This document shows, piece after piece, positions 2,643 through 62,721 of a stretch of 64,000 bases of DNA (the first letter of the stretch is position 1; every line of letters begins with the position of its first letter). This DNA comes from Callorhinchus milii (taxonomy: Eukaryota), in the NCBI RefSeq assembly GCF_018977255.1, contig NW_024704742.1, positions 46,440,001-46,504,000 on the forward strand, written 5' to 3'. Below the pieces are notes generated by a model. That model searched no databases, was not told the DNA's origin, and saw only the letters and a list, made by a program, of their open reading frames with translations. A program made the translations under genes and the position numbers.

Positions 2643-3410
2643 ATAGAATACATTAGAATACATTAGAATATACAGCATAGAAACAGGCCATTTGGCCCAA
2701 CTGGTCTATGCCAGTGTTTATGCTCCACATGAGCCTCCTGCCCTTTCCCTAACTGAGCCTTCAAGCATAACCTTCTATTCCTTTCTCCCTCATGTACCTA
2801 TCTATCTTTCCCTTCAATATATATATGCTATTTGCCTCAACAACTCCTTGTGGTAGCAAGTTCCTGATTCCCACTATTCTCTGTGTGAAGAAATTTCCTC
2901 TAACTTCTCTATTTGATCTAGTTGTCACTATTTTATATTGATGGCCCCTGGTTTTGGTCTTCCCCACAAGTGGAAACATCTTCCCTATGTCTGTCTAACC
3001 TATTAAAAGCTTGCATAATTTTAAAGACCTCTATCAGGTCACCCCTTACCCACCTCTTTTTCAGAGAAAAGAGTCCAAGCTTTTTCAGCCTTTCCTGATA
3101 GGTATAACCTCTCAGTTCTGGGATCACACTTGTGAATCTCTTTTGCACCCTCTCCGGTGCCTCAACATCTCTTCTATAATGTGGGGACCAGAACTGCCCA
3201 CAGTAATCTAAGTGTGGCTTAACCAACGTTCTATAGAAGTTTACCATAACTTCCCGGCTTTTCATTTCTATCCCTCTAGAAATGAACCCCAATGCCCGGT
3301 TTGCTTTTTTTTATTAATCTGGGTTGCTACTTTTAGTGAATTGTGTATGCATACTGCTAGGTCCCTTTGCTCCTCTACCCCATTTAGGTTTTTATTTTCC
3401 AGGATGTATG
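2643..3410 (-). mobile_element. CR1 LINE 3' fragment (RT C-terminus, 3' UTR and microsatellite tail)
   Basis: ORFs 2933-3292 (YRTLVKPHLDYCGQFWSPHYRRDVEAPERVQKRFT...RGDLIEVFKI) and 2761-2979 (TRGHQYK...FFTQRIV) are typical CR1 RT C-terminus. Tail is a short tandem repeat (tagaatacattagaatacattagaata on +). Confidence 0.95.
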
Positions 3411-6552: not shown

Positions 6553-6928
6553 AATAATAATAATCCTTGCATTTGCTATAGTGCCTTATCACGTCTTCGA
6601 GACGTCTCAAAGCCCTTCACGGAATATACTGTAAAGTGAATTGGCTGTATGTTTTGTGAATGAAATGCTGCAACCAATTGCGCACAACAGTGTCCCACAA
6701 ACAGTCGTGGATTGAAGTGACCAATTCATTATTATTATTTTTTGAAGCAATTATAATCCTCAGAAAAGTGATCCACCAATCGACTAACAACTGGGTTCCT
6801 ACTTATTGCTAGGTAAACAGAGGCGTGTGGAGTAAGGAAACTTGCCCAACATTTCTCACTGCCAGAAATCGAACCCAGGTCTCTCATTTGCAAGAAGAGT
6901 GCTCTAACCACTGAGCTCCAGGACTACA
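6553..6928 (-). mobile_element. tRNA-derived SINE family B, full-length form (tRNA head, Meta-like core, Deu-SINE/L2-type tail)
   Basis: Minus strand: gtagtcctggagctcagtggttagagcac...gggttcgatt (A and B boxes), then gggcaagtttccttactccacacgcctctgtttacctagcaataagtaggaacc, the shared 3' region and a (TTA)n tail. Confidence 0.88.
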
Positions 6929-16039: not shown

Positions 16040-16382
16040 GCTGTTTTTTTATTAAATGAGCCCAGTGTCTCAACCATCCTTCCTTGCAACTGTTCCAGTA
16101 TTTAGTTACCTCCAGGTAAAGAAACACTTCCTGACATCTGTCCTGAAATTACCCTTTGTAACTGTAAACCTACATCTTCATGTTCTACTACTACTAATTT
16201 CTTGATGCATCCTAAAGTATTGCTCCTGGTTTACTTTGTCAATCTCAATTAAAATTTTTATACACCATTATAATGTCCCCTCTGAGCCATCTTCTCTCAA
16301 GACTGAAGAGCCTTAGCTTGTCTAATCATTGCTCATAGCTCATTCCTCTAACACTCGGGCTCAACCTCGTTGCTCTCCTCAA
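16040..16382 (-). mobile_element. CR1 RT C-terminal fragment
   Basis: Reverse complement of the same CR1 subfamily (cttcctgacatctgtcctgaaattaccctttgtaactgtaaacc; tcccctctgagccatcttctctcaagactgaagagcc). Confidence 0.8.
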
Positions 16383-19300
16383 CACATTTAAATAAGCTAT
16401 TCCATGTGGGTGTTCATATGTCTTTTCAGATTTCCAATTATGCAATAAATGCAGCTTTGCTTAACGCACAAAATTTACAATCCAAAAATTTTTCCATCTG
16501 CCAAAAGGGTTCTTCCAAGTTTAGAATAAAGATTTTGTTTGACAATTTTTGGGGGCATTTATTTTAAATTTATTACAGTGCTTCCTTCTCGTGTCATCTA
16601 AATATTATACTGGAGCCAAAGCTTGACAATGCAACACAAGGTGTCCATCGTTGAAGATTGTTTGGAATCATTTCTCTCAATCGACCCTTTTTTTATCCTT
16701 TCGGTTCTTCCTTCATTTACATAATAATGTAGCGTCTGATTTGCATTGCACCATTTCACAAGCACAGCACATAAATATCAATTATCACCAGTGCATTTTG
16801 CAAAAAATGCTCATTCCACAGACTGCCGTGATTTAATAATATTGATATAGTTTTGTGTTGCAAAATCTTAGCAGTCAGCAGTTACCAGATTTATTGATTA
16901 GTTGCTATACATACAATGCATTACACTGTATGGTGAATAACACTGGGAACACATATGTTTTCTTATTACTAAGATAATTTGTTTTTCTTTTCCTCTGCTT
17001 TGGAGTGGAGATATTGTAAAGCAATTCTGGGCTGATCTAAATTCTGTATAGAGAGAAAACAATTAATCACAGTGCTTTGAATAGATCAACCCCTGATCAT
17101 TTGCTAAATTGGCAGAGTTCAAACCTGAGCCAAGGCAGAAATTCAGACAAAATGTAGATTTCGGGTCAAAATTAAAGTGGTTGTGCATTGGAAAAGAAGC
17201 TCTGCATATATGGACGATTCCTCTTTTCATGCTGCAGTTTAATCTGCTGGGAGTTGGTTTCCTACAAAGTCTATCGCGCTCAATGTTACTTTGTTAGCAC
17301 ACCTATAATCTGTAATGTGTTATATGTCATTACATTTCCCCAGGCTCACACAACCCTTGACATCTCTGGCAAAATACTCAGGGGTCATGTCCTTTCATTA
17401 AAGAAAACAGCCTTTGCAAAACTTTTTTCATTTTGCTCTCTTCAAGTGCTATGTATGTGTGATTGGGGTCATCTGTTTATGGCTAGGGTCTCTTATAACT
17501 CGATTCTAATGCAAATAGATTGGTATTTCTTTTTGGGTTTCATGACATTAACCAGGAGTGGTGATGTACCTTTGAAAGGATAAAAACAAATGTAACATTG
17601 CGCTCAAATACCATTAAATAACAGACTCAGGAGAGAAAAGTGTTACTGAAAACACCATAATCGCTATACTATCAAACAGTGACCTATCAATAACTTGGCA
17701 TCAGAGCCACTGGTTAATTTTTCATTTCCCCTTCCCCATTAATACATATTATTACAGCTGACTGAACACTTAAGATATTCCAATGAATGAAGTTCAACAT
17801 AAACTGTACGAATGTTTGCTTGCTAATAATGATGCTCTACCAGAAGACTCAGCATTTTTCAATTGATAGTGCATGCCATAAAGCACCGTACGAGGGCACA
17901 GCATGTTTGTCTGATATGTTTTAAGACAGCTGGAAAATGTTAATCCTGTTGCATTTAGAAAATGATGGGCAGATTTGATATTCACAGAAGGTAAACACCT
18001 CCTCCTTAAAGTTGTTTATATTCATTTACCTTGATTGTTCCAGTGCTGTTTACCCTGAGTCAACTGATGCATCATCAGCCATTGTGGTGTATTAAGAAGC
18101 TTTACCCTTGACAGCACATCAACCAGCAAATGCTGCAAGTGACAAACTGTAATGACCAAACTACCCATTTTGATTTCTTCACTATCTCAGCAGTTATTCA
18201 GACTCAATATTGGACTTTTCTCTTATTTAATTCTGCAGAGTTTACCCTGTCTTCTGCTGTCTCCTCTTATCAATCAAATGCAAAGTATGTTTCAGTCACT
18301 CAACAAATGCTGGCATAGAGATGAGAGTGAGGTCAGCAAAATGTTTTATTAACTTTTAGAAACCAGTTCAGAGCTTCTAGCCATTACCATAACATATAGC
18401 AATGAGTAACTGCATGCACCTCTGTAGTGATCACCAAATTCTTGAAACCTAGGGTAAACTAGTAACAAATATATTTAATCAGTAAATCTCAGTCTTGCTG
18501 GTCATTGTACATTGGAGCCAAACAGAAGAGCTTGTCAGGGCAGGGTTTGGTTGTCAAATAAATCTCAAGCCGAAACTGTATTCATGGAGGGACTTATATG
18601 CACTGCATACCGATTAACAAGACCTTGGCTCCAACTTGAGACTTTTGAGTTGAGGTCCAGCGCACTGGGACATGTTTGTGACGTGAAAAGCGCTATACAA
18701 CTGTAATTTGTCGTCATTGTCTGCAAGAGGTTGTGAACTACACAGGAGGCTCAAAATTCTACCCAGTTAAGACCTATTTCCATTAATATAGTTTGTGGAA
18801 AATTCTTCATTTGGTAACTGGTTCTTTGTAAGAACTATAGAAAACTGACTTCCAAATTAAGATTGAATTTAAGAATCCTTGCCTATACTTAATAGTGAAG
18901 ATTCTTGGTGTGAAAATCTGTGTTTTCTTATTGTCATTCACCGTCAGTTTTTAGAAAAATGCCTATTTCTTAGAATGTAAGAAAATATAAGAGGTGAAAT
19001 TTGTGTGACGAGTTAAGATTTTGAATTTACCTCTGAAACATGAAGATTGTGTTCTGTCTTTAATGATGTGTCTGAATCTCCTCTGTTTCATACCTTTAAC
19101 TTGTTATTATTCAAGAGGAGAGAATTGCTGGAAAAATGCCAATATACAATATGTTATTTGTATAATCTGGACCTCTACACCAATTTAATACTCTAGCATT
19201 TGAGGCTCATTGTTATCAAGACTTACTTAACCAACGGGCTGAGTCAGCTTGTGATGAGATCAATGCAATCTAACTGATTAAAAGGAGAAGATTATGGTGC

Positions 19301-33725: not shown

Positions 33726-35084
33726 AGTCTTTGAACCTTTTTCGCCAATTTATGAGAATATTACAGATTTTTAAATCCCAGTTCACGCCATGCAAATGTG
33801 CAAATAGCTGGAATTACAATGAATATATGGTGATGGGAATTTTAATGTAATGCAAATGAGGACCTTGTTGATATATTTTGGTTAGAGGTGAAATTGAAAG
33901 AAAAGTAAAGGTATCAGCATTTGGACAAATGACTGAACCAGACACCATTAGGTGTATATTTTGGAGCACATTACACTTATTAAGACTCAGGTCCCAGAGG
34001 TAAACAACACTAAGTCTCACAGACTCAGTATACTGCATGTGTTGTGTGTGTGTGTCTGTGAAGTGATTCCATTTAGTAATCACATCAAGCAGCTCAGTAT
34101 TAATACAGTATTCCTGCTGAGTGCTTCCAGCTCCTTATGATTATTTCTAAATACTGTGTATCAGTAGTGGATGGAGTGTTTTCCAATTCAATTAATTTGA
34201 ATTCCACTCCACTAATTGATCCCATAAATACTAAAAGCCTTGAAATAAATTTGTTTGCTTTTGCAGATTTAGTTCAATCTATAGCCATATTATGCACAAA
34301 TATTTTTGTTTTGTGCTACATAAGGATGGTGGAACATTGCGTTTTTCTCAAAGCTGAAATAACATATTAAATGGAACACAAACATGATTGGATGGGGGAA
34401 TATGCAGCCATTAATCATCACAGAAGAATGAAAGAAAAAAGACTATTCCATATTTATGGTCATCTCTTAAGCAGTGGCTTTTACAAGTGACTGATTTAGG
34501 TGCATGTAAATGTTATCACTGCTCTGCAGCAGTGCTCAGTTAATACGACAGAAGTAAAAAGTACACAGTGAGGAACCGGGAGATTAGCACAAAGAAAACA
34601 CTGTTAGCTGCAGTCTAGGGAGACCCAGAATACAAGTGTTTGCAAGTTACTATCAATTATTGTTATTGGAAAGTCAAAGCAGTGCATGGCTGATAGTATC
34701 CGATATTATTTCATGAATCCACGCTTTGAATATCTTAACCCATTCTTTCTACTGCACGTTCCTCTCGCCAGGTATTACACTGCCCCCAACCGATATATGA
34801 GATTCTGCTATGTAAATAGCTCATGCATAAATATATCAGCTGAAATAATAATACATGCACTTGATTTTGTGCCTTATCTTGCCATTGAGATGTCTCAAAG
34901 CATTTCACAAGATTTTATTGTGAAATTAAGTGACAGCCAATTTGTGGACAACATCATTCCACAAACAGCCATGAACATAATTCTTTCACTAGGCTTTCGG
35001 TCATTTTTCCCCTCCCAGCCTCCCTCTATTCCCACCCCCAACTCAAATACCCATCCAATATTGTAAAGATTTGAACTTCAGAGT

Positions 35085-35370
35085 CAATAGGGAAAAAAAT
35101 TATTCCCCTGGTCAGTGCGTCAGCAACTAGAGGGCATTAATTTAAGATAATGTTTTTATGGCGAGAGTAGGTAGGATATGCAATGCCTTGCCGGGAGTGG
35201 TGGTTGAGGCTAAATCCATACTGTCCTTCAAGAGGAAATAAGACAAATATCTTAATACCTTAATACCTATAACTATGGGGAAAGGGCAGGTAAATGGTCC
35301 TGAAATGATTACTCTTGAGGCGGCCGGCACAGACACAATGGGCCGAATTTCTATTGTTCTGTGGCTCTAA
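35085..35370 (+). mobile_element. CR1 3' end
   Basis: ttattcccctggtcag...aactagagggcat (TRGH), tggttgaggctaaatcc, and 3' UTR ggccggcacagacacaatgggccgaa. Confidence 0.85.
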
Positions 35371-36208
35371 CTTCCTCTTCCCTCCCCCTATTACAGTGTT
35401 GCTGTAATTTCTATCAATCCACTGATATTTTAACAGTGATTATTAATCTGCATCTCTCTGGATGATTAATACTCAATATAGTTGCACCCATGTCTTGGAG
35501 AAGAATATCTTTGGATGTTAGGTTTTGATATTTTGATGCTATTTTCTCTGATACAAGAGAGAAAATCTAGGTGTGACTGTGACAGCAAATATATTTTGCT
35601 CTGGTAATGCGATACTTGCTCTGGTCTTCAAATCCCTCTATGGTGTCACACCATGCATCCTATGAAATCTTCTCCAGCCACATATTGCAGCTTGTACCCT
35701 TTACTCTGTTGATTCTGGTCTATCGCTGCAAAAAGGGCAAACAAAATCAAAAAAACTTGCCTGTCAGAGGATTAGGATTTGATCTGAATTTTGATAATCC
35801 AAATTTTACTTCTCTTTTAAAAAATGTTGCTATATTAATAGAGCAACACAAGTCTGTATTATGCCTCCCTTTGCGCTATACAAGATGCTGTTACCTTTTT
35901 CAAAGGGCAGTAGGGAAGGCGTCACAGTCTGATCAGTATGTTAATAGGTTGGGCCAAATCAGCAAACAGGTGGATAATTTTATCACTATTTGATGAGCAG
36001 GAATGATCATTTGACCAGGCAGCAACATGATCATTTACTCCAATGAAATAATAAATGATTATTTTCTGGTCCATTTCCATTAAGACTTTAATGCTGGAAT
36101 TATACAGTTAGAGCCATTTGTTACTGCTTCCAGCAGTAAAGTGAAAGCTGTAGGAGACAGCAATTATATTCTGCACTCTAAATTCACATAAGCCACAGCT
36201 CCACTTAC

Positions 36209-36241
36209 ACAATGTCGCGCAAGCACTACCGGGTCCGTTAA
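36209..36241 (-). CDS. Candidate 33-nt internal microexon of an unidentified minus-strand host gene (LTDPVVLARHC in phase 0, or xNGPGSACATL in phase 1)
   Basis: ctgtcttgtaccag|TTAACGGACCCGGTAGTGCTTGCGCGACATTGT|gtaagtgg. Canonical acceptor, strong donor, length divisible by 3, ~50-nt AG-free zone upstream, four CpGs in 33 nt, repeat-free flanks. Confidence 0.5.
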
Positions 36242-36904
36242 CTGGTACAAGACAGTCGGTTTTGCAATGAAGTTTAAAGAGACGGGATGTTACAGACTGT
36301 TTAATGACATTAAAAAGCTTAAGAGTGGTTCACTCTACACAAGAGGTTTTTAAACCTAATTCTTCTGTTCAAAATTTCTTGAAAAATGCTTCCTGTAGTG
36401 CAAACTTGATTTATAACACAAGCACGGATTTGTTTCAATTTCTAAAACCAAACCATTTCTGAATCAATACTTGTAGTTCAGCATAAATGAGCTGTCATAT
36501 GCCTTGACTGTATGCTGCATTCATTTCTAGTTTGCATTAAAAGCATCACTATCTATTCAGATGTATGGGACTGTGAGAATTTTCTAAAGGGTTATCAATA
36601 ATTTTCATTCACCTCTGGGTCTTAATTATAATAATTAGTAATAGTGCTTAGATGTGGTATAGGGCCTTTCACGTCAGGAGGGATCTGAAAGCAGTTTACA
36701 GGATTTTACTAGAAATTGTAATGACTACATATTTGTAGGCAAAAGCAGCAGTCCAATTGTGCACAATAATGTCCTACAAACAGACATGATGAGTAACATT
36801 TGGTGGTCACGTGGTGCTTGGTATTAGCACTTGTTGCTAGCAACAACAACAATAAATTACATTTGTTTAACGCCTTTCGCATCTTGAAGACGTCCTAAGG
36901 CCTC

Positions 36905-43863: not shown

Positions 43864-43959
43864 TCATATCATCAGATCACTTTGTTCTGAAATACAGTAT
43901 TGCTTTCCAAAAGGCAAAACATCTGTGATAAATGATGAACATCTGAACTTTGTTTATAA
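43864..43959 (+). repeat. 96-bp perfect direct repeat, copy 1
   Basis: Identical base for base to 45006-45101. Confidence 0.95.
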
Positions 43960-45005
43960 TGCGGGTTAAGCTTGAAATAATTTGCTTGATTTAGGCCCTG
44001 AGGTTTTATTGGGCTGGGGGAAAAAAACAGCCTGTTTTACTTTATCTAATGGTCACAGTGGATAGAGTCGCTGTCCTTATTTGGCTTCATATACTCTGTT
44101 GGTCCGTAAATTTACAAACGTTGGCAGTGTGAGCATACAAAGGGATTTTCCATTATAAATTCATCCACCAAGTCTATAAATGTACAGACCAACAGAGAAT
44201 ACAATGTTCTGATCTGCCAAAGCCCATAAGTTTTTTGACAATTGAAGAATCACCCCCAGGATGGATCCTACACTAAAATGACAGAATTGATGTAGTTTCA
44301 CACAAATAAAACGAAAATGGACAGAGGCATGATTCAAACTAAATAAGTTGGCCAATATTAGATTCCTTGTTTCTGCCAAATGGAATATTCCTTCTTCATG
44401 CAGTCCATCAAGCAGGCTGGGTGCAACTGAATGACATGCTTTTTAAGTAATATGATCTGCCGCTGGCTGATCATTAAGAAAATTAGCAACATTTATTTAT
44501 TTTCTTACAGGTTCATCTTGAGTTTTGAGATCTCGTGAAAAGGCAATTGTGACTTTCTGATTCACTGAGGAAAAAAGAGATGATCATCATCTTGGACTCG
44601 ATCTAATACAGCTAATTCCAACACAACAAGATATTCAGCAGAATGACAACAGAAAGATCAGAAAAGCAAAATATTATGCCAATTGTTTGGGGTAAATTTC
44701 CGAGTGTAGAGATGATGAATTGCCATTAAAACCACCTTTCTAAACACTCTTTTGGTCAGCCCTTCACCTCCCTCTTCCGGCCTCGACTAACCAGCCAGTT
44801 ATGTAAAGTGCTTTGAGGTGTCCTCCTGATAGCAATGGTGCTATATAAATGTAAATTGTATTTTTGTGAACTTCCTGTTTATTTGCAGTGACAGGTTTAC
44901 AGGCCTCTGAGCCCCACAGTTTGCTCAACAGGTGTGATCCTATATTTCTTTCCTGGTGCCTGACCATCTGCAGCAGCCACTGCCCTTCCCAATTTAGATG
45001 TAACT

Positions 45006-45101
45006 TCATATCATCAGATCACTTTGTTCTGAAATACAGTATTGCTTTCCAAAAGGCAAAACATCTGTGATAAATGATGAACATCTGAACTTTGTTTATA
45101 A
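45006..45101 (+). repeat. 96-bp perfect direct repeat, copy 2
   Basis: Identical base for base to 43864-43959. Confidence 0.95.
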
Positions 45102-49017: not shown

Positions 49018-50085
49018 AAATAGAGAGAGAGTGACAGAGTCAGAAATAAATAAATAGAGAAAGTGGCAGAGAGAGGGAAACTTTAGCACAGTGTAGTAAC
49101 AAGATGACAGCATAGCTCTTAATGGATTTTTTTCTTTTAGTTAGTGTAGCCATTTTGTAGTTTGCATGATGACCAGTTATCTGCACTGTTTGCTTATATG
49201 CAATGGAGGGGTCTTAATAGGTGCAGATAATCGTATCTCTATTGAAAAGTGATTCAGTATTCGGAAAGAGATACATAGTTAGCCAGAGAAATTCCAACTT
49301 TTCCTTTGAGTTTTCCTTCCCACCAGTCAAACTGCAAGTCAGTCTGAGATGCCACAGTGATTCTGTCACCGCCATTTAAGTCCAGGACACCTGGTGCTTG
49401 TCCTTCAACAATTCCATTGAATGAAAGGGAGTGAATGTTTGTACAGCCTACATTAAACTAAAATGCCTGCTGTATTGTAGTCTAACTTCACACTTAAGTC
49501 TTTATCCAGTCTGTTTTCTGTTCTAGAGCATTTGTATAAAACACACACTGCCAGGAACATTTTACTTGTAATTAATAATTTATCTTTATAACCATTTATC
49601 TTTCTGACCCTGAGCTGAGTATAAATGTTTCATAAATACCAATGAATGCCTAGGGTAAGATGTAGGAAATGAAGGTTGGATTCTTTTTTTGGTGATAAGC
49701 CATATGGAGACAGAAAGCAGCTTAAATGTACTAACAGACTGGACAAGGTGTGCTTGTCACATATTTAATTGCAATGTTTCTGACAGGCAAACTAAGTCTC
49801 AAATGAATCAATAATCGAAAATTTGGCAACGAGATAAGGATTCGGAGATGAAAAGGAAAACCTGTCTTAATGAGCGCAGAACTTCTTTCAAATACTCCAA
49901 ACTTGATTATTGTACTTCACAGAGCACTGAAGGCTATTTCACCATACTCAGTTGTGACTTTTCCATCTTTGTAAAATTTTCAGTGTCACAGAGAAATGGC
50001 TTCTAACCATGAGAACTGAGGGCAAATCTTGTTACTGAAGGCTTTTGCTAAGGATTTTTGTTTGCCTGACATTACTTACCTTTAT

Positions 50086-50400
50086 AATAATAATAATCTT
50101 TGCATTTGATATAGTGTTTTTCACATCTTCTAGACGTCTCAAAGTGCTTCACAGAATATATTGTAAAGTGAATTGACTGTATATTTGTGGGCGAAACACG
50201 GCAGCCAATTACACACAGCGGTGTCTCACAAAAAGTCGTGGATTGAAGTGACCAATTTGTTATTGCTTTCTTTTATTGAGGGATTATTATCAGGAGTGTG
50301 GAGTAAGGAAATTTACCCAAGATTTCGCTCTGCCAGGAAATGAACCCAGGTCTCTCGCTTGCGAGGCAAGTGCTCTAACTACTGAGCTACAGGACTCCAC
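50086..50400 (-). mobile_element. SINE family B, internally deleted form
   Basis: gagggattattatcaggagtgtggagtaaggaaa junction lacks the Meta-like core; tRNA head intact. Confidence 0.9.
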
Positions 50401-57203: not shown

Positions 57204-57508
57204 GTAGAGTCCTGTAGCTCAGGGTTTAGAACACTCGCCTTGCAAGTGAGAGACCTGTGTTCAATTCCTAGCAGGGCAAAATCTTGGGCAAGTTTCCTTA
57301 TTCCACACACCTGATAATAATCCCTCAGAAAAAAAAACAATAATAAATTGGTCATTTTCAATCCAGGACTGTTTGTGGGACACTGCTGTGCGCAATTGGC
57401 TGTCACATTTTGCCCATAAATATACAGTCAATTCACTTTACAGTTTATTCTGAGAAGCATTTTGAGACATCTAGAAGATGTGAAAAGCGCTATACCAAAT
57501 GCAAAAGA
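57204..57508 (+). mobile_element. SINE family B, internally deleted form
   Basis: gtagagtcctgtagctcagggtttagaacactcgccttgcaagtgagag head; junction ccacacacctgataataatccctc. Confidence 0.9.
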
Positions 57509-57720
57509 TGTGGGCAAAATGTGGCAGCCCATTGCAGTGTCCCACAAACAGTCATGGATTGAGTGACCAAATTATTATTTTATTTATTTATTGTTTTCTT
57601 GAGGGATTATTATCAGGCGTGTGGAGTAAGGAAACTTGCCCAAGGATTTGCCTGCCGGGAATCAAACCCAGGTCTCTCGCTTGCGAGGCGAGTGCTCTAA
57701 CCACTGAGCTACAGGACGCC
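57509..57720 (-). mobile_element. SINE family B, internally deleted form lacking its tail, abutting the previous copy in inverted orientation
   Basis: gagggattattatcaggcgtgtggagtaaggaaacttgccc...gctctaaccactgagctacaggac. Confidence 0.9.
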
Positions 57721-61432: not shown

Positions 61433-62721
61433 GTAAAAACCATACTAAAAGCATAAGGACAATATGTTACTCTGCATGTTAGCATCTCACTATCACATTG
61501 GATTTACCTTAAAAATATTAATTTTAATTCAAAATGCCGACTAGCACTGGAGGTAGACTTCATTGAAACCGAGTTCCCACAGTTGTCATAATCCACTTCC
61601 TCGTACTGGCAGTCGATTATTTGCAATTCAGTGTCACTTTGCGAATTCAGGCAGCAAATGCCGAATCTTCAGATATGTTCAAACAATACAGTTTGTTGGA
61701 AATGGAATCATCCCCCTAGCGTGACAAGGAGTGTTCTTTCTAAAATTGGGGTTAAAGTATTTTGTTGGGGTGATGTAAAAATTCTATAGGGCTGCTAAGT
61801 TATGGTATGCATAATATGATTCTGTCACTAGATGAAAAAGAAGGAAATTGTTTAATTCTACAATACTATCATCCATCATTTGAAGAACACAAATTTCACA
61901 CAGCAATGAGAGGAAGAGGGAGCCTGCTGCAAAATAGATTTTGAGTTTGCAACCTTACGAATTTAACCTTGTGAAAGGCTTAAGTGCTTCTCTTTATAAT
62001 CTGTTATTGACACTGGTTGCATATAACCATGAGATCCATGGTTGTAAATTCTAGTGAAGCTTGAAGAGGGAAAAAAGCAACATAACCAAAAAACAATCTA
62101 CATTCGGGTGGTTTAATGACTTTTTTTCCGCTCAAAGACTATTACACTTTCAAAAAATGAATGAAAATTACTTACAGGAATAACTGAAGCAAAACCAAAG
62201 CCTAGGAAAATAAATTAAATAGATTATTCCATTATCATTAAATTATATTATGTAAATTACTCTATAACATGTTTGCCTTTTTATATATTGGTTAAGACTT
62301 ATCTGGCATTATTTGTAGCAGAAGTCAAGAGAATTATTTTTTTTCTCGAACCTGGGAATGGAAACATAGTTTTCAAATGTTCTTCCTCCCCAAGTTTCTT
62401 TTGAAGGTGGTGGTTTACACTGTGTTATTGCTCTTTGAGTATCTGTCATCCTTTAGTTCTTTACCCAATTGAGAGAGGAATCACAACTGAGTCCAATCTT
62501 CCCGTCAACCAAGCTAAATACTGTGCCAGCTGAGATCAACAAAATGACAAGGCCCATGTTTCAAGCCAGGGTCTTTGCAATTATATTGAAGTGATATTTT
62601 TGTAGAACTAAAGAATCTGTTAGAAATTGACACATTTTCGACACCAAGAATGATTTCCACTGGTGTGGCATTTAACAATAAGATTAATTGAGGCCAAATT
62701 TCCCTGTTAGCATCCTCTGAA

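What the first reader, a model, noticed from the sequence alone, without database searches (positions are those of the whole stretch)
36150..36310. Candidate conserved 33-nt microexon on the minus strand
Seen: minus strand ...tctgtaacatcccgtctctttaaacttcattgcaaaaccgactgtcttgtaccag|TTAACGGACCCGGTAGTGCTTGCGCGACATTGT|gtaagt. The exon is 33 nt and open in two phases (LTDPVVLARHC or xNGPGSACATL). It has a ~50-nt AG-free zone containing a TGC, four CpGs in a CpG-depleted window, and lies in a repeat-free block. Known: neural microexons are typically frame-preserving, have extended AG-exclusion zones, and carry upstream UGC motifs used by SRRM3/4. Inference: this may be the only coding exon in 64 kb, implying a giant-intron host gene on the minus strand. 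I could not identify the peptide.
Basis: partly seen in the sequence, partly recalled or inferred. Interest (0 to 1): 0.7.

Follow-up and report, generated by a model that had tools for sequence, protein, structure and literature searches.

The report
Unconfirmed 33-base exon look-alike
A 33-base stretch in a gene-poor part of a cartilaginous-fish genome has the signals of a small nerve-cell exon, but nothing shows that it is spliced or conserved, so it is more likely a look-alike than a real exon.

Summary
The sequence is as described: minus strand 36241-36209, cag|33 nt|GTAAGT, 53-nt AG-free zone, TGC at -25, four CpGs, two open frames. Splice signals this good arise in 188 of 1500 simulated windows. 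Only four CpGs inside such a candidate is rare (2 of 1500), and that feature was picked after the fact. 'Conserved' is unsupported: no other organism, protein or spliced contig was found, though these tests had little or no power for 33 nt. Unchecked earlier notes identify the genome as elephant shark and place the exon about 155 kb from ARAP2's RhoGAP exon. By human synteny (inferred) that is the gene-poor PCDH7-ARAP2 interval, which weakens the giant-intron host idea. It is not the only coding-derived sequence: a damaged SH3YL1-like SH3 exon ending in a stop lies 13 kb upstream on the same strand (E=3e-16). Odds: chance pseudo-exon 0.40, regulatory element with chance splice-like edges 0.20, real spliced exon 0.35 (coding 0.20, non-coding 0.15), gene relic 0.05. 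The novelty label follows the best explanation and is provisional. If real, it is a new member of a known kind.

The parts
36209..36241 (-). Candidate 33-nt exon; open in frames 0 and 2; four CpGs
36203..36208 (-). Donor-like GTAAGT. The exonic side (TGT) matches none of the consensus CAG, so 6 of 9 U1 matches; 580 of 6742 GT sites score as well on a rough matrix
   Evidence: matrix frequencies recalled, not MaxEnt
36242..36244 (-). Acceptor-like CAG with a weak proximal tract (56% pyrimidine at -34..-3); 659 of 8174 AG sites score as well on a rough matrix
36244..36296 (-). 53-nt AG-free zone
36264..36266 (-). TGC at -25 (possible SRRM3/4 UGC)
36276..36288 (-). Distal pyrimidine tract (11 of 13) containing TCTC
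36289..36292 (-). Branch-point-like TAAC at -51 (a second, yUnAy-type site lies at -30)
   Evidence: consensus recalled
36297..36298 (-). Upstream AG that would give an 88-nt, frame-shifting exon open for 29 codons
   Evidence: no protein match
49254..49447 (-). Context: SH3YL1-like SH3 exon remnant ending in a stop codon, 13,013 nt upstream of the candidate; 30 of 49 residues identical to human SH3YL1; FP of FPANY changed to SL

Best explanation
A pseudo-exon. An ordinary AG and an ordinary GTAAGT happen to bracket a 33-nt CpG-rich spot in unique, probably intergenic DNA on the 3' side of ARAP2. It is not spliced into a functional mRNA, or only as noise. Shown: the motifs and their chance rates. 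Inferred: the intergenic position and the lack of function.
For: Splice signals of this quality occur in 188 of 1500 simulated windows, and with the branch-point/tract/UGC layout plus GTAAGT in 59 of 1500. The window itself has 5 frame-preserving look-alikes among 15. A 4-CpG cluster is expected in the unique DNA. Acceptor and donor are only in the top 8-9% of their dinucleotides, whereas SRRM3/4 targets have strong donors (bioRxiv 10.1101/2024.09.17.613571). Coding selection explains the CpGs poorly: 3 of 4 (frame 0) or 4 of 4 (frame 2) could be lost by a silent change. Position near ARAP2 (unchecked note), in an interval gene-poor in human and chicken. Over the 161 annotated windows of this genome about 0.2 chance cases with 4 CpGs are expected.
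Against: A frame-preserving open candidate with 4 CpGs arose in only 2 of 1500 simulations. Jointly with the SRRM3/4-like layout the product is about 2e-5 per window if independent (thresholds were set after seeing the sequence). GTAAGT is the most strand-biased of 1302 hexamer pairs in unique DNA (17 minus, 3 plus), which may hint at minus-strand transcription. No direct test with real power was possible.
Confidence: 0.4

Rival explanations
1. A real 33-nt coding cassette exon, included in neurons when SRRM3/4 binds the UGC between the distal pyrimidine tract and the AG. It adds 11 residues to an unrecognised giant-intron gene or to a far 3' extension of ARAP2.
For: The layout matches the published branch point / tract / UCUC / UGC / AG pattern. 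It is frame-preserving with two open frames. The CpG coincidence is 2 of 1500. 82 of 136 zebrafish neural exons of 28-51 nt depend on srrm3/4 (PMC12626424). GTAAGT excess on the minus strand.
Against: No host gene known at the inferred position. A stop-ended SH3YL1-like exon lies 13 kb upstream on the same strand. The donor is weak on its exonic side. No arap2 or pcdh7 entry in the 12 supplementary files searched of the zebrafish neural-exon study. Vertebrate large introns show no general sense-strand excess of donor sites (PMC2773006). AATAAA is not depleted on the minus strand (38 against 35) and the T>A skew favours the plus strand.
Confidence: 0.2
2. A constrained or unmethylated regulatory DNA element (an enhancer of PCDH7 or ARAP2) whose CpGs survive because of factor binding, with splice-like edges by chance.
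For: The CpGs are largely at silent positions in both frames. The cluster extends beyond the exon edge (6 CpGs in 36201-36300). A head-to-head pair of MYB-type sites, unique in the window, straddles the acceptor at 36235-36244 (motif recalled, noticed after the fact). Gene-poor setting.
Against: No conservation or chromatin data. The number of CpG clusters barely exceeds chance (3 against 0.89, and by eye the other two sit at repeat remnants). Single MYB-type sites occur 95 times and the SOX-type word 62 times in the window.
Confidence: 0.2
3. A really spliced but non-coding exon of a minus-strand read-through or long non-coding transcript running on from ARAP2 or from the SH3YL1-like remnant. 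The frame is then incidental and transcripts would be decay targets.
For: Same strand as the SH3YL1-like remnant and as ARAP2 (inferred). GTAAGT strand bias. SRRM3/4-like layout. It needs no conserved peptide.
Against: No transcript seen. The other strand-asymmetry measures disagree.
Confidence: 0.15
4. A relic exon of a decayed duplicated gene segment, the same event that left the SH3YL1-like remnant.
For: A gene-derived fragment exists 13 kb away on the same strand.
Against: It lies downstream of that fragment's stop. The remnant has 2 CpGs in 194 nt while the candidate has 4 in 33. No other clear Pfam remnant among 559 frames scanned.
Confidence: 0.05

Closest known systems
SRRM3/4-dependent neural microexons (3-27 nt) and short neural exons (28-51 nt) of jawed vertebrates
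   Same: Length a multiple of three, open frame, long AG-free zone, branch-like site and pyrimidine tract far from the AG, UCUC followed by UGC before the AG, GTAAGT donor.
   Different: 33 nt is above the 3-27 nt definition; the donor has no exonic consensus match; no host gene, no inclusion data, no orthologue.
Pseudo-exons (intronic or intergenic stretches flanked by splice-like signals that are not used); concept recalled from general knowledge
   Same: Middling splice signals at a chance-level frequency, several look-alikes in the same window.
   Different: This one also holds four CpGs, which is rare among chance candidates (2 of 1500 simulations).
SH3YL1 (human SH3 domain, PDB 2D8H; yeast relatives 2A08, 1OOT), for the remnant at 49254-49447
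   Same: 30 of 49 residues identical over the C-terminal part of the SH3 domain, ending at a stop at nearly the same place.
   Different: FP of the FPANY motif reads SL; the first strand of the domain does not align in frame; no Ysc84-domain exon found upstream in the window.

Membership tests
SRRM3/4-type neural microexon | Length 3-27 nt | tested here: not met
   33 nt; definition from bioRxiv 10.1101/2024.09.17.613571 section 3. It fits the 28-51 nt class of PMC12626424.
SRRM3/4-type neural microexon | Frame-preserving and free of stops | tested here: met
   Frames 0 and 2 open
SRRM3/4-type neural microexon | Branch point and pyrimidine tract far from the AG | tested here: met
   TAAC at -51, tract -47..-35, AG-free zone 53 nt; motif match only, no SVM-BP score
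SRRM3/4-type neural microexon | UCU/CUC followed by UGC between branch point and AG | tested here: met
   TCTC at -41, TGC at -25
SRRM3/4-type neural microexon | Strong 5' splice site | tested here: inconclusive
   Perfect intronic hexamer but 0 of 3 exonic matches; 580 of 6742 GT sites score as well on a recalled matrix; MaxEnt not available
SRRM3/4-type neural microexon | Spliced into an mRNA, with neural-enriched inclusion | tested here: inconclusive
   No cover in 4 of 8 listed RNA-like runs laid; tissues not on record; contigs show presence, not absence
SRRM3/4-type neural microexon | Conserved in other vertebrates | not testable with these tools
   No vertebrate genome collection; protein searches have no power for 10-11 residues; the run search needs near-identity over about a twentieth of the words
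SRRM3/4-type neural microexon | Lies inside a host gene intron | tested here: inconclusive
   No genome held; strand-asymmetry measures disagree; position near ARAP2 rests on an unchecked note
SRRM3/4-type neural microexon | Inclusion depends on SRRM3/4 | not testable with these tools
   Needs a minigene or knock-down
Conserved non-coding (enhancer) element | Non-coding sequence conserved at a syntenic place | not testable with these tools
   No vertebrate alignments available
Known structured RNA family | Rfam match or unusual folding energy | tested here: not met
   No Rfam match over the candidate at E up to 10; z-scores -1.11 to +1.66 for 4 folds

The most novel reading that the evidence does not exclude
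The chimaera keeps an unannotated minus-strand gene with giant introns (or a far 3' extension of ARAP2) in the PCDH7-ARAP2 desert. It uses this 33-nt SRRM3/4-type exon, and possibly a co-opted SH3YL1-derived exon, and has no counterpart in bony vertebrates.
Probability: 0.08. Interest if true: 0.6.

Novelty: not a real feature. Interest (0 to 1): 0.2.

Why it matters
If it is a pseudo-exon it matters only as a calibration: signal-only microexon calls are common in 64 kb of vertebrate DNA (about 1 window in 8 by simulation). If it is a real exon, it would be one more short neural exon of a known kind, but it would mark a transcription unit in an interval that is gene-poor in human and chicken. 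That would be useful for the history of genes kept after the vertebrate genome duplications. The SH3YL1-like remnant is a sure, small addition to the annotation of this region.

Tried and rejected
RNA: no RNA holder listed for 34980-36610. The 4 holders (X1-X4, shares 0.87-0.94) are one organism and one study, of unrecorded kind; 8 RNA-like runs were added by species label. I laid 4 of those 8 (X5, X8, X9, X10): nothing over the candidate; X5 gave 18 contigs, and all its cover lies in 35090-35364, from short pieces down to 32 nt. This is no evidence either way. The query was 1631 nt, too long to reveal a relative that shares only the exon. Proteins: three word-based searches with the window's own frames (41, 73, 53 residues) gave 5, 10 and 18 candidates, none at E up to 10. 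A planted exact 10-11-residue match scored E of 700 or worse in 20 of 20 trials per peptide (assuming the whole database as search size), so these say nothing about the 33-nt exon. A planted 29-residue match scored about 1e-8 to 1e-11, so the 88-nt variant is weakly disfavoured. HMMER over 1.84 billion representatives with the plus-strand 53-residue frame: 0 hits. PDB, Pfam, ESM Atlas and exact look-up: nothing meaningful for the candidate frames. Degenerate patterns for both frames in JGI metagenomes: 0 and 0; vertebrate DNA is not expected there. Structured RNA rejected; a G-U-rich hairpin would cover the donor but is not better than shuffles (26 of 200 as good). Repeat origin: no self-match longer than 15 nt in the window. 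Earlier scan notes: nothing by sequence, near place or relatives. Papers: peptide words 0 hits; ARAP2+microexon 2 listed, 1 read, no link; ARAP2+PCDH7+gene desert 0; elephant shark+conserved noncoding elements+PCDH7 0; ARAP2 splicing 7 listed, none read. I expected large introns to be enriched for donor sites on the sense strand; PMC2773006 says they are not, so the GTAAGT bias is kept only as a hint. The other-frame start of the SH3 remnant gave no SH3 hit, so a frameshift there is suspected, not shown.

Full report
1. Observation. On the minus strand, 36241..36209 is a 33-nt stretch between ccag and GTAAGT. The AG-free zone is 53 nt and the previous AG lies at -57. TGC is at -25, TCTC at -41, a branch-like TAAC at -51, and -47..-35 is 85% pyrimidine, while -34..-3 is only 56%. 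Frames 0 and 2 are open, frame 1 has stops, and there are four CpGs. Window CpG o/e is 0.31. Self-comparison masks 33% of the window; the candidate sits in an unmasked block, 34976-36613, which still holds short multi-copy pieces about 900-1100 nt downstream.

2. Chance. The window has 15 configurations yAG..GT[AG]AGT with an AG-free zone of at least 25 nt, 5 of them frame-preserving. I ran 1500 third-order Markov simulations of the 42.6 kb of unmasked DNA. A frame-preserving open candidate with zone of at least 50, TGC and GTAAGT occurred in 188. One with the branch / tract / TGC layout and GTAAGT occurred in 59. One with four CpGs occurred in 2. A four-CpG cluster anywhere is expected (observed 3, mean 0.89, 200 simulations). 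So the case rests on the coincidence of CpGs and splice edges. Multiplying the two rates gives about 2e-5 per window, but the features and thresholds were chosen after seeing the sequence, and the CpG coincidence alone is expected about 0.2 times over the 161 annotated windows of this genome. On a rough recalled matrix the acceptor is matched or beaten by 659 of 8174 AGs and the donor by 580 of 6742 GTs. In both open frames most CpGs could be lost silently (3 of 4 and 4 of 4), so protein constraint would protect them only in part.

3. Where the window is. It is rich in reverse-transcriptase fragments and SINE-like repeats, with four tRNA-like heads (the labels L2, CR1 and Deu-type SINE are recalled). 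No whole genome was held. Earlier notes of this scan, unchecked here, call the genome elephant shark. They place CPEB2, LDB2 and slit2 5.96, 5.25 and 4.17 Mb before the window and an ARAP2 RhoGAP codon 126,954 nt beyond its end, about 155 kb from the candidate. This is the human 4p order (recalled). If orientation is also kept, ARAP2 is on the minus strand with its 3' end facing the window, and the window lies in the PCDH7-ARAP2 interval (inference). That interval is gene-poor elsewhere. A 13.4-Mb human deletion there holds 16 genes, with PCDH7, ARAP2 and DTHD1 in the paper's table (PMC10048360, passages). A 2.98-Mb chicken interval names the same three genes as candidates (PMC12810574, one passage). 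No ARAP2 exon was recognised in the window. PCDH7 would be on the other strand (recalled).

4. Is the minus strand transcribed? GTAAGT occurs 17 times on the minus and 3 times on the plus strand in unique DNA (p=0.003), the most biased of 1302 hexamer pairs, and sites with at least 7 of 9 U1 matches are 33 against 12. Removing two overlapping doubles and the candidate leaves 14 against 3. I noticed this after seeing counts, and p=0.003 is not significant over 1302 tests. GTGAGT (9 against 11) and AATAAA (38 against 35) show no bias, and T exceeds A on the plus strand (p=0.003). AATAAA is reported to be counter-selected in introns (PMC5499120, passages), and large vertebrate introns are reported to have no clear sense-strand excess of donors (PMC2773006, passages). 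The result is a hint, not a finding.

5. Direct tests. None had real power; they are listed under Tried and rejected. In short: no RNA holder was listed, 4 of 8 RNA-like runs were laid without cover at the candidate, and the protein searches cannot see a 10-11-residue match. The 88-nt variant from the upstream AG would have been seen if annotated, and was not, which is weak evidence against it. A known structured RNA is excluded.

6. At 49254-49447 on the minus strand lies an SH3YL1-like SH3 fragment: E=3.3e-16 against human SH3YL1 (PDB 2D8H), 30 of 49 residues identical by my count of the printed alignment, Pfam SH3_9 E=7.6e-6, below the curated cut-off. It follows a TAG acceptor-like site, ends in a stop, and has SL in place of FP in the FPANY motif. 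The first strand of the domain does not align in frame; a frameshift is suspected but not shown. It was the only hit below E=0.001 among 559 frames scanned, of 766 frames of at least 30 residues outside repeats. It is most likely a decayed copy (inference). It lies 13,013 nt upstream of the candidate, so 'the only coding exon in 64 kb' is wrong as to origin, and a transcript using both would meet a stop before the 33-nt piece.

7. Mechanism. Best reading (0.40): a pseudo-exon in intergenic DNA. Rivals: a regulatory element with chance edges (0.20); a coding exon switched on in neurons by SRRM3/4 binding the UGC (0.20); a spliced non-coding exon of a read-through transcript (0.15); a relic of a duplicated gene segment (0.05). 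These numbers are judgement, not computation.

8. Comparison with what is known. SRRM3/4 microexons are 3-27 nt, have strong donors, a distant branch point and tract, and a UCU_CUC..UGC enhancer; 79% and 74% of two classes carry a UGC (bioRxiv 10.1101/2024.09.17.613571; abstract, passages, sections 3 and 10; its supplements are closed and include orthologue tables that might bear on this). In zebrafish 82 of 136 neural exons of 28-51 nt depend on srrm3/4 (PMC12626424; passages, section 5), and arap2 and pcdh7 did not occur in its 12 supplementary files as held. The candidate works like such an exon on paper, but fails the length definition and has no shown splicing, host or orthologue, so it is not filed as a member. 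Two further papers were seen as passages and gave nothing (PMC6724607; bioRxiv 10.64898/2026.09.05.749416; its closed supplements cover elephant-shark exons). The paper searches found no description of this element; most subscription journals are not searched.

9. Verdict. Observation confirmed; interpretation undecided and leaning against. Interest 0.2. Raw brain RNA reads and a syntenic alignment to another cartilaginous fish would settle it.

Noticed in passing
window 49254-49447 (-): SH3YL1-like SH3 exon remnant ending in a stop; E=3.3e-16 to human SH3YL1; damaged FPANY motif and suspected frameshift; no other exon of the gene found in the window.
   Followed up: partly
whole window, unique DNA: GTAAGT is 17 on the minus and 3 on the plus strand, the most biased of 1302 hexamer pairs; other asymmetry measures do not agree.
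   Followed up: partly
window 62176-62201 (-): A second short exon look-alike, 26 nt, with a better pyrimidine tract (80%), 56-nt AG-free zone and GTAAGT; frame-shifting, all three frames open.
   Followed up: no
window 36210-36239 (+): On the plus strand the same bases read as ATG plus eight codons plus TAA, a nine-codon mini frame; probably chance.
   Followed up: no
window 36235-36244: Two head-to-head MYB-type sites across the acceptor, the only such pair in the window (motif recalled).
   Followed up: partly
window about 43898-43960 and 45037-45100 (-): About 80 nt appear twice almost identically 1.1 kb apart (seen by eye); a local duplication or an assembly echo.
   Followed up: no
window 6859-6921, 50325-50396, 57208-57279, 57651-57715: Four tRNA-like matches (three called Ala by ARAGORN) embedded in repeats; likely SINE heads, not tRNA genes.
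   Followed up: no
window 2933-3310 (-) and 16140-16400 (-): Pieces that read like the C-terminal end of a CR1-type LINE protein (label recalled), not caught by the self-repeat mask.
   Followed up: no
window 36202-36225 (-): A G-U-rich hairpin could cover the donor site; not more stable than shuffles.
   Followed up: yes
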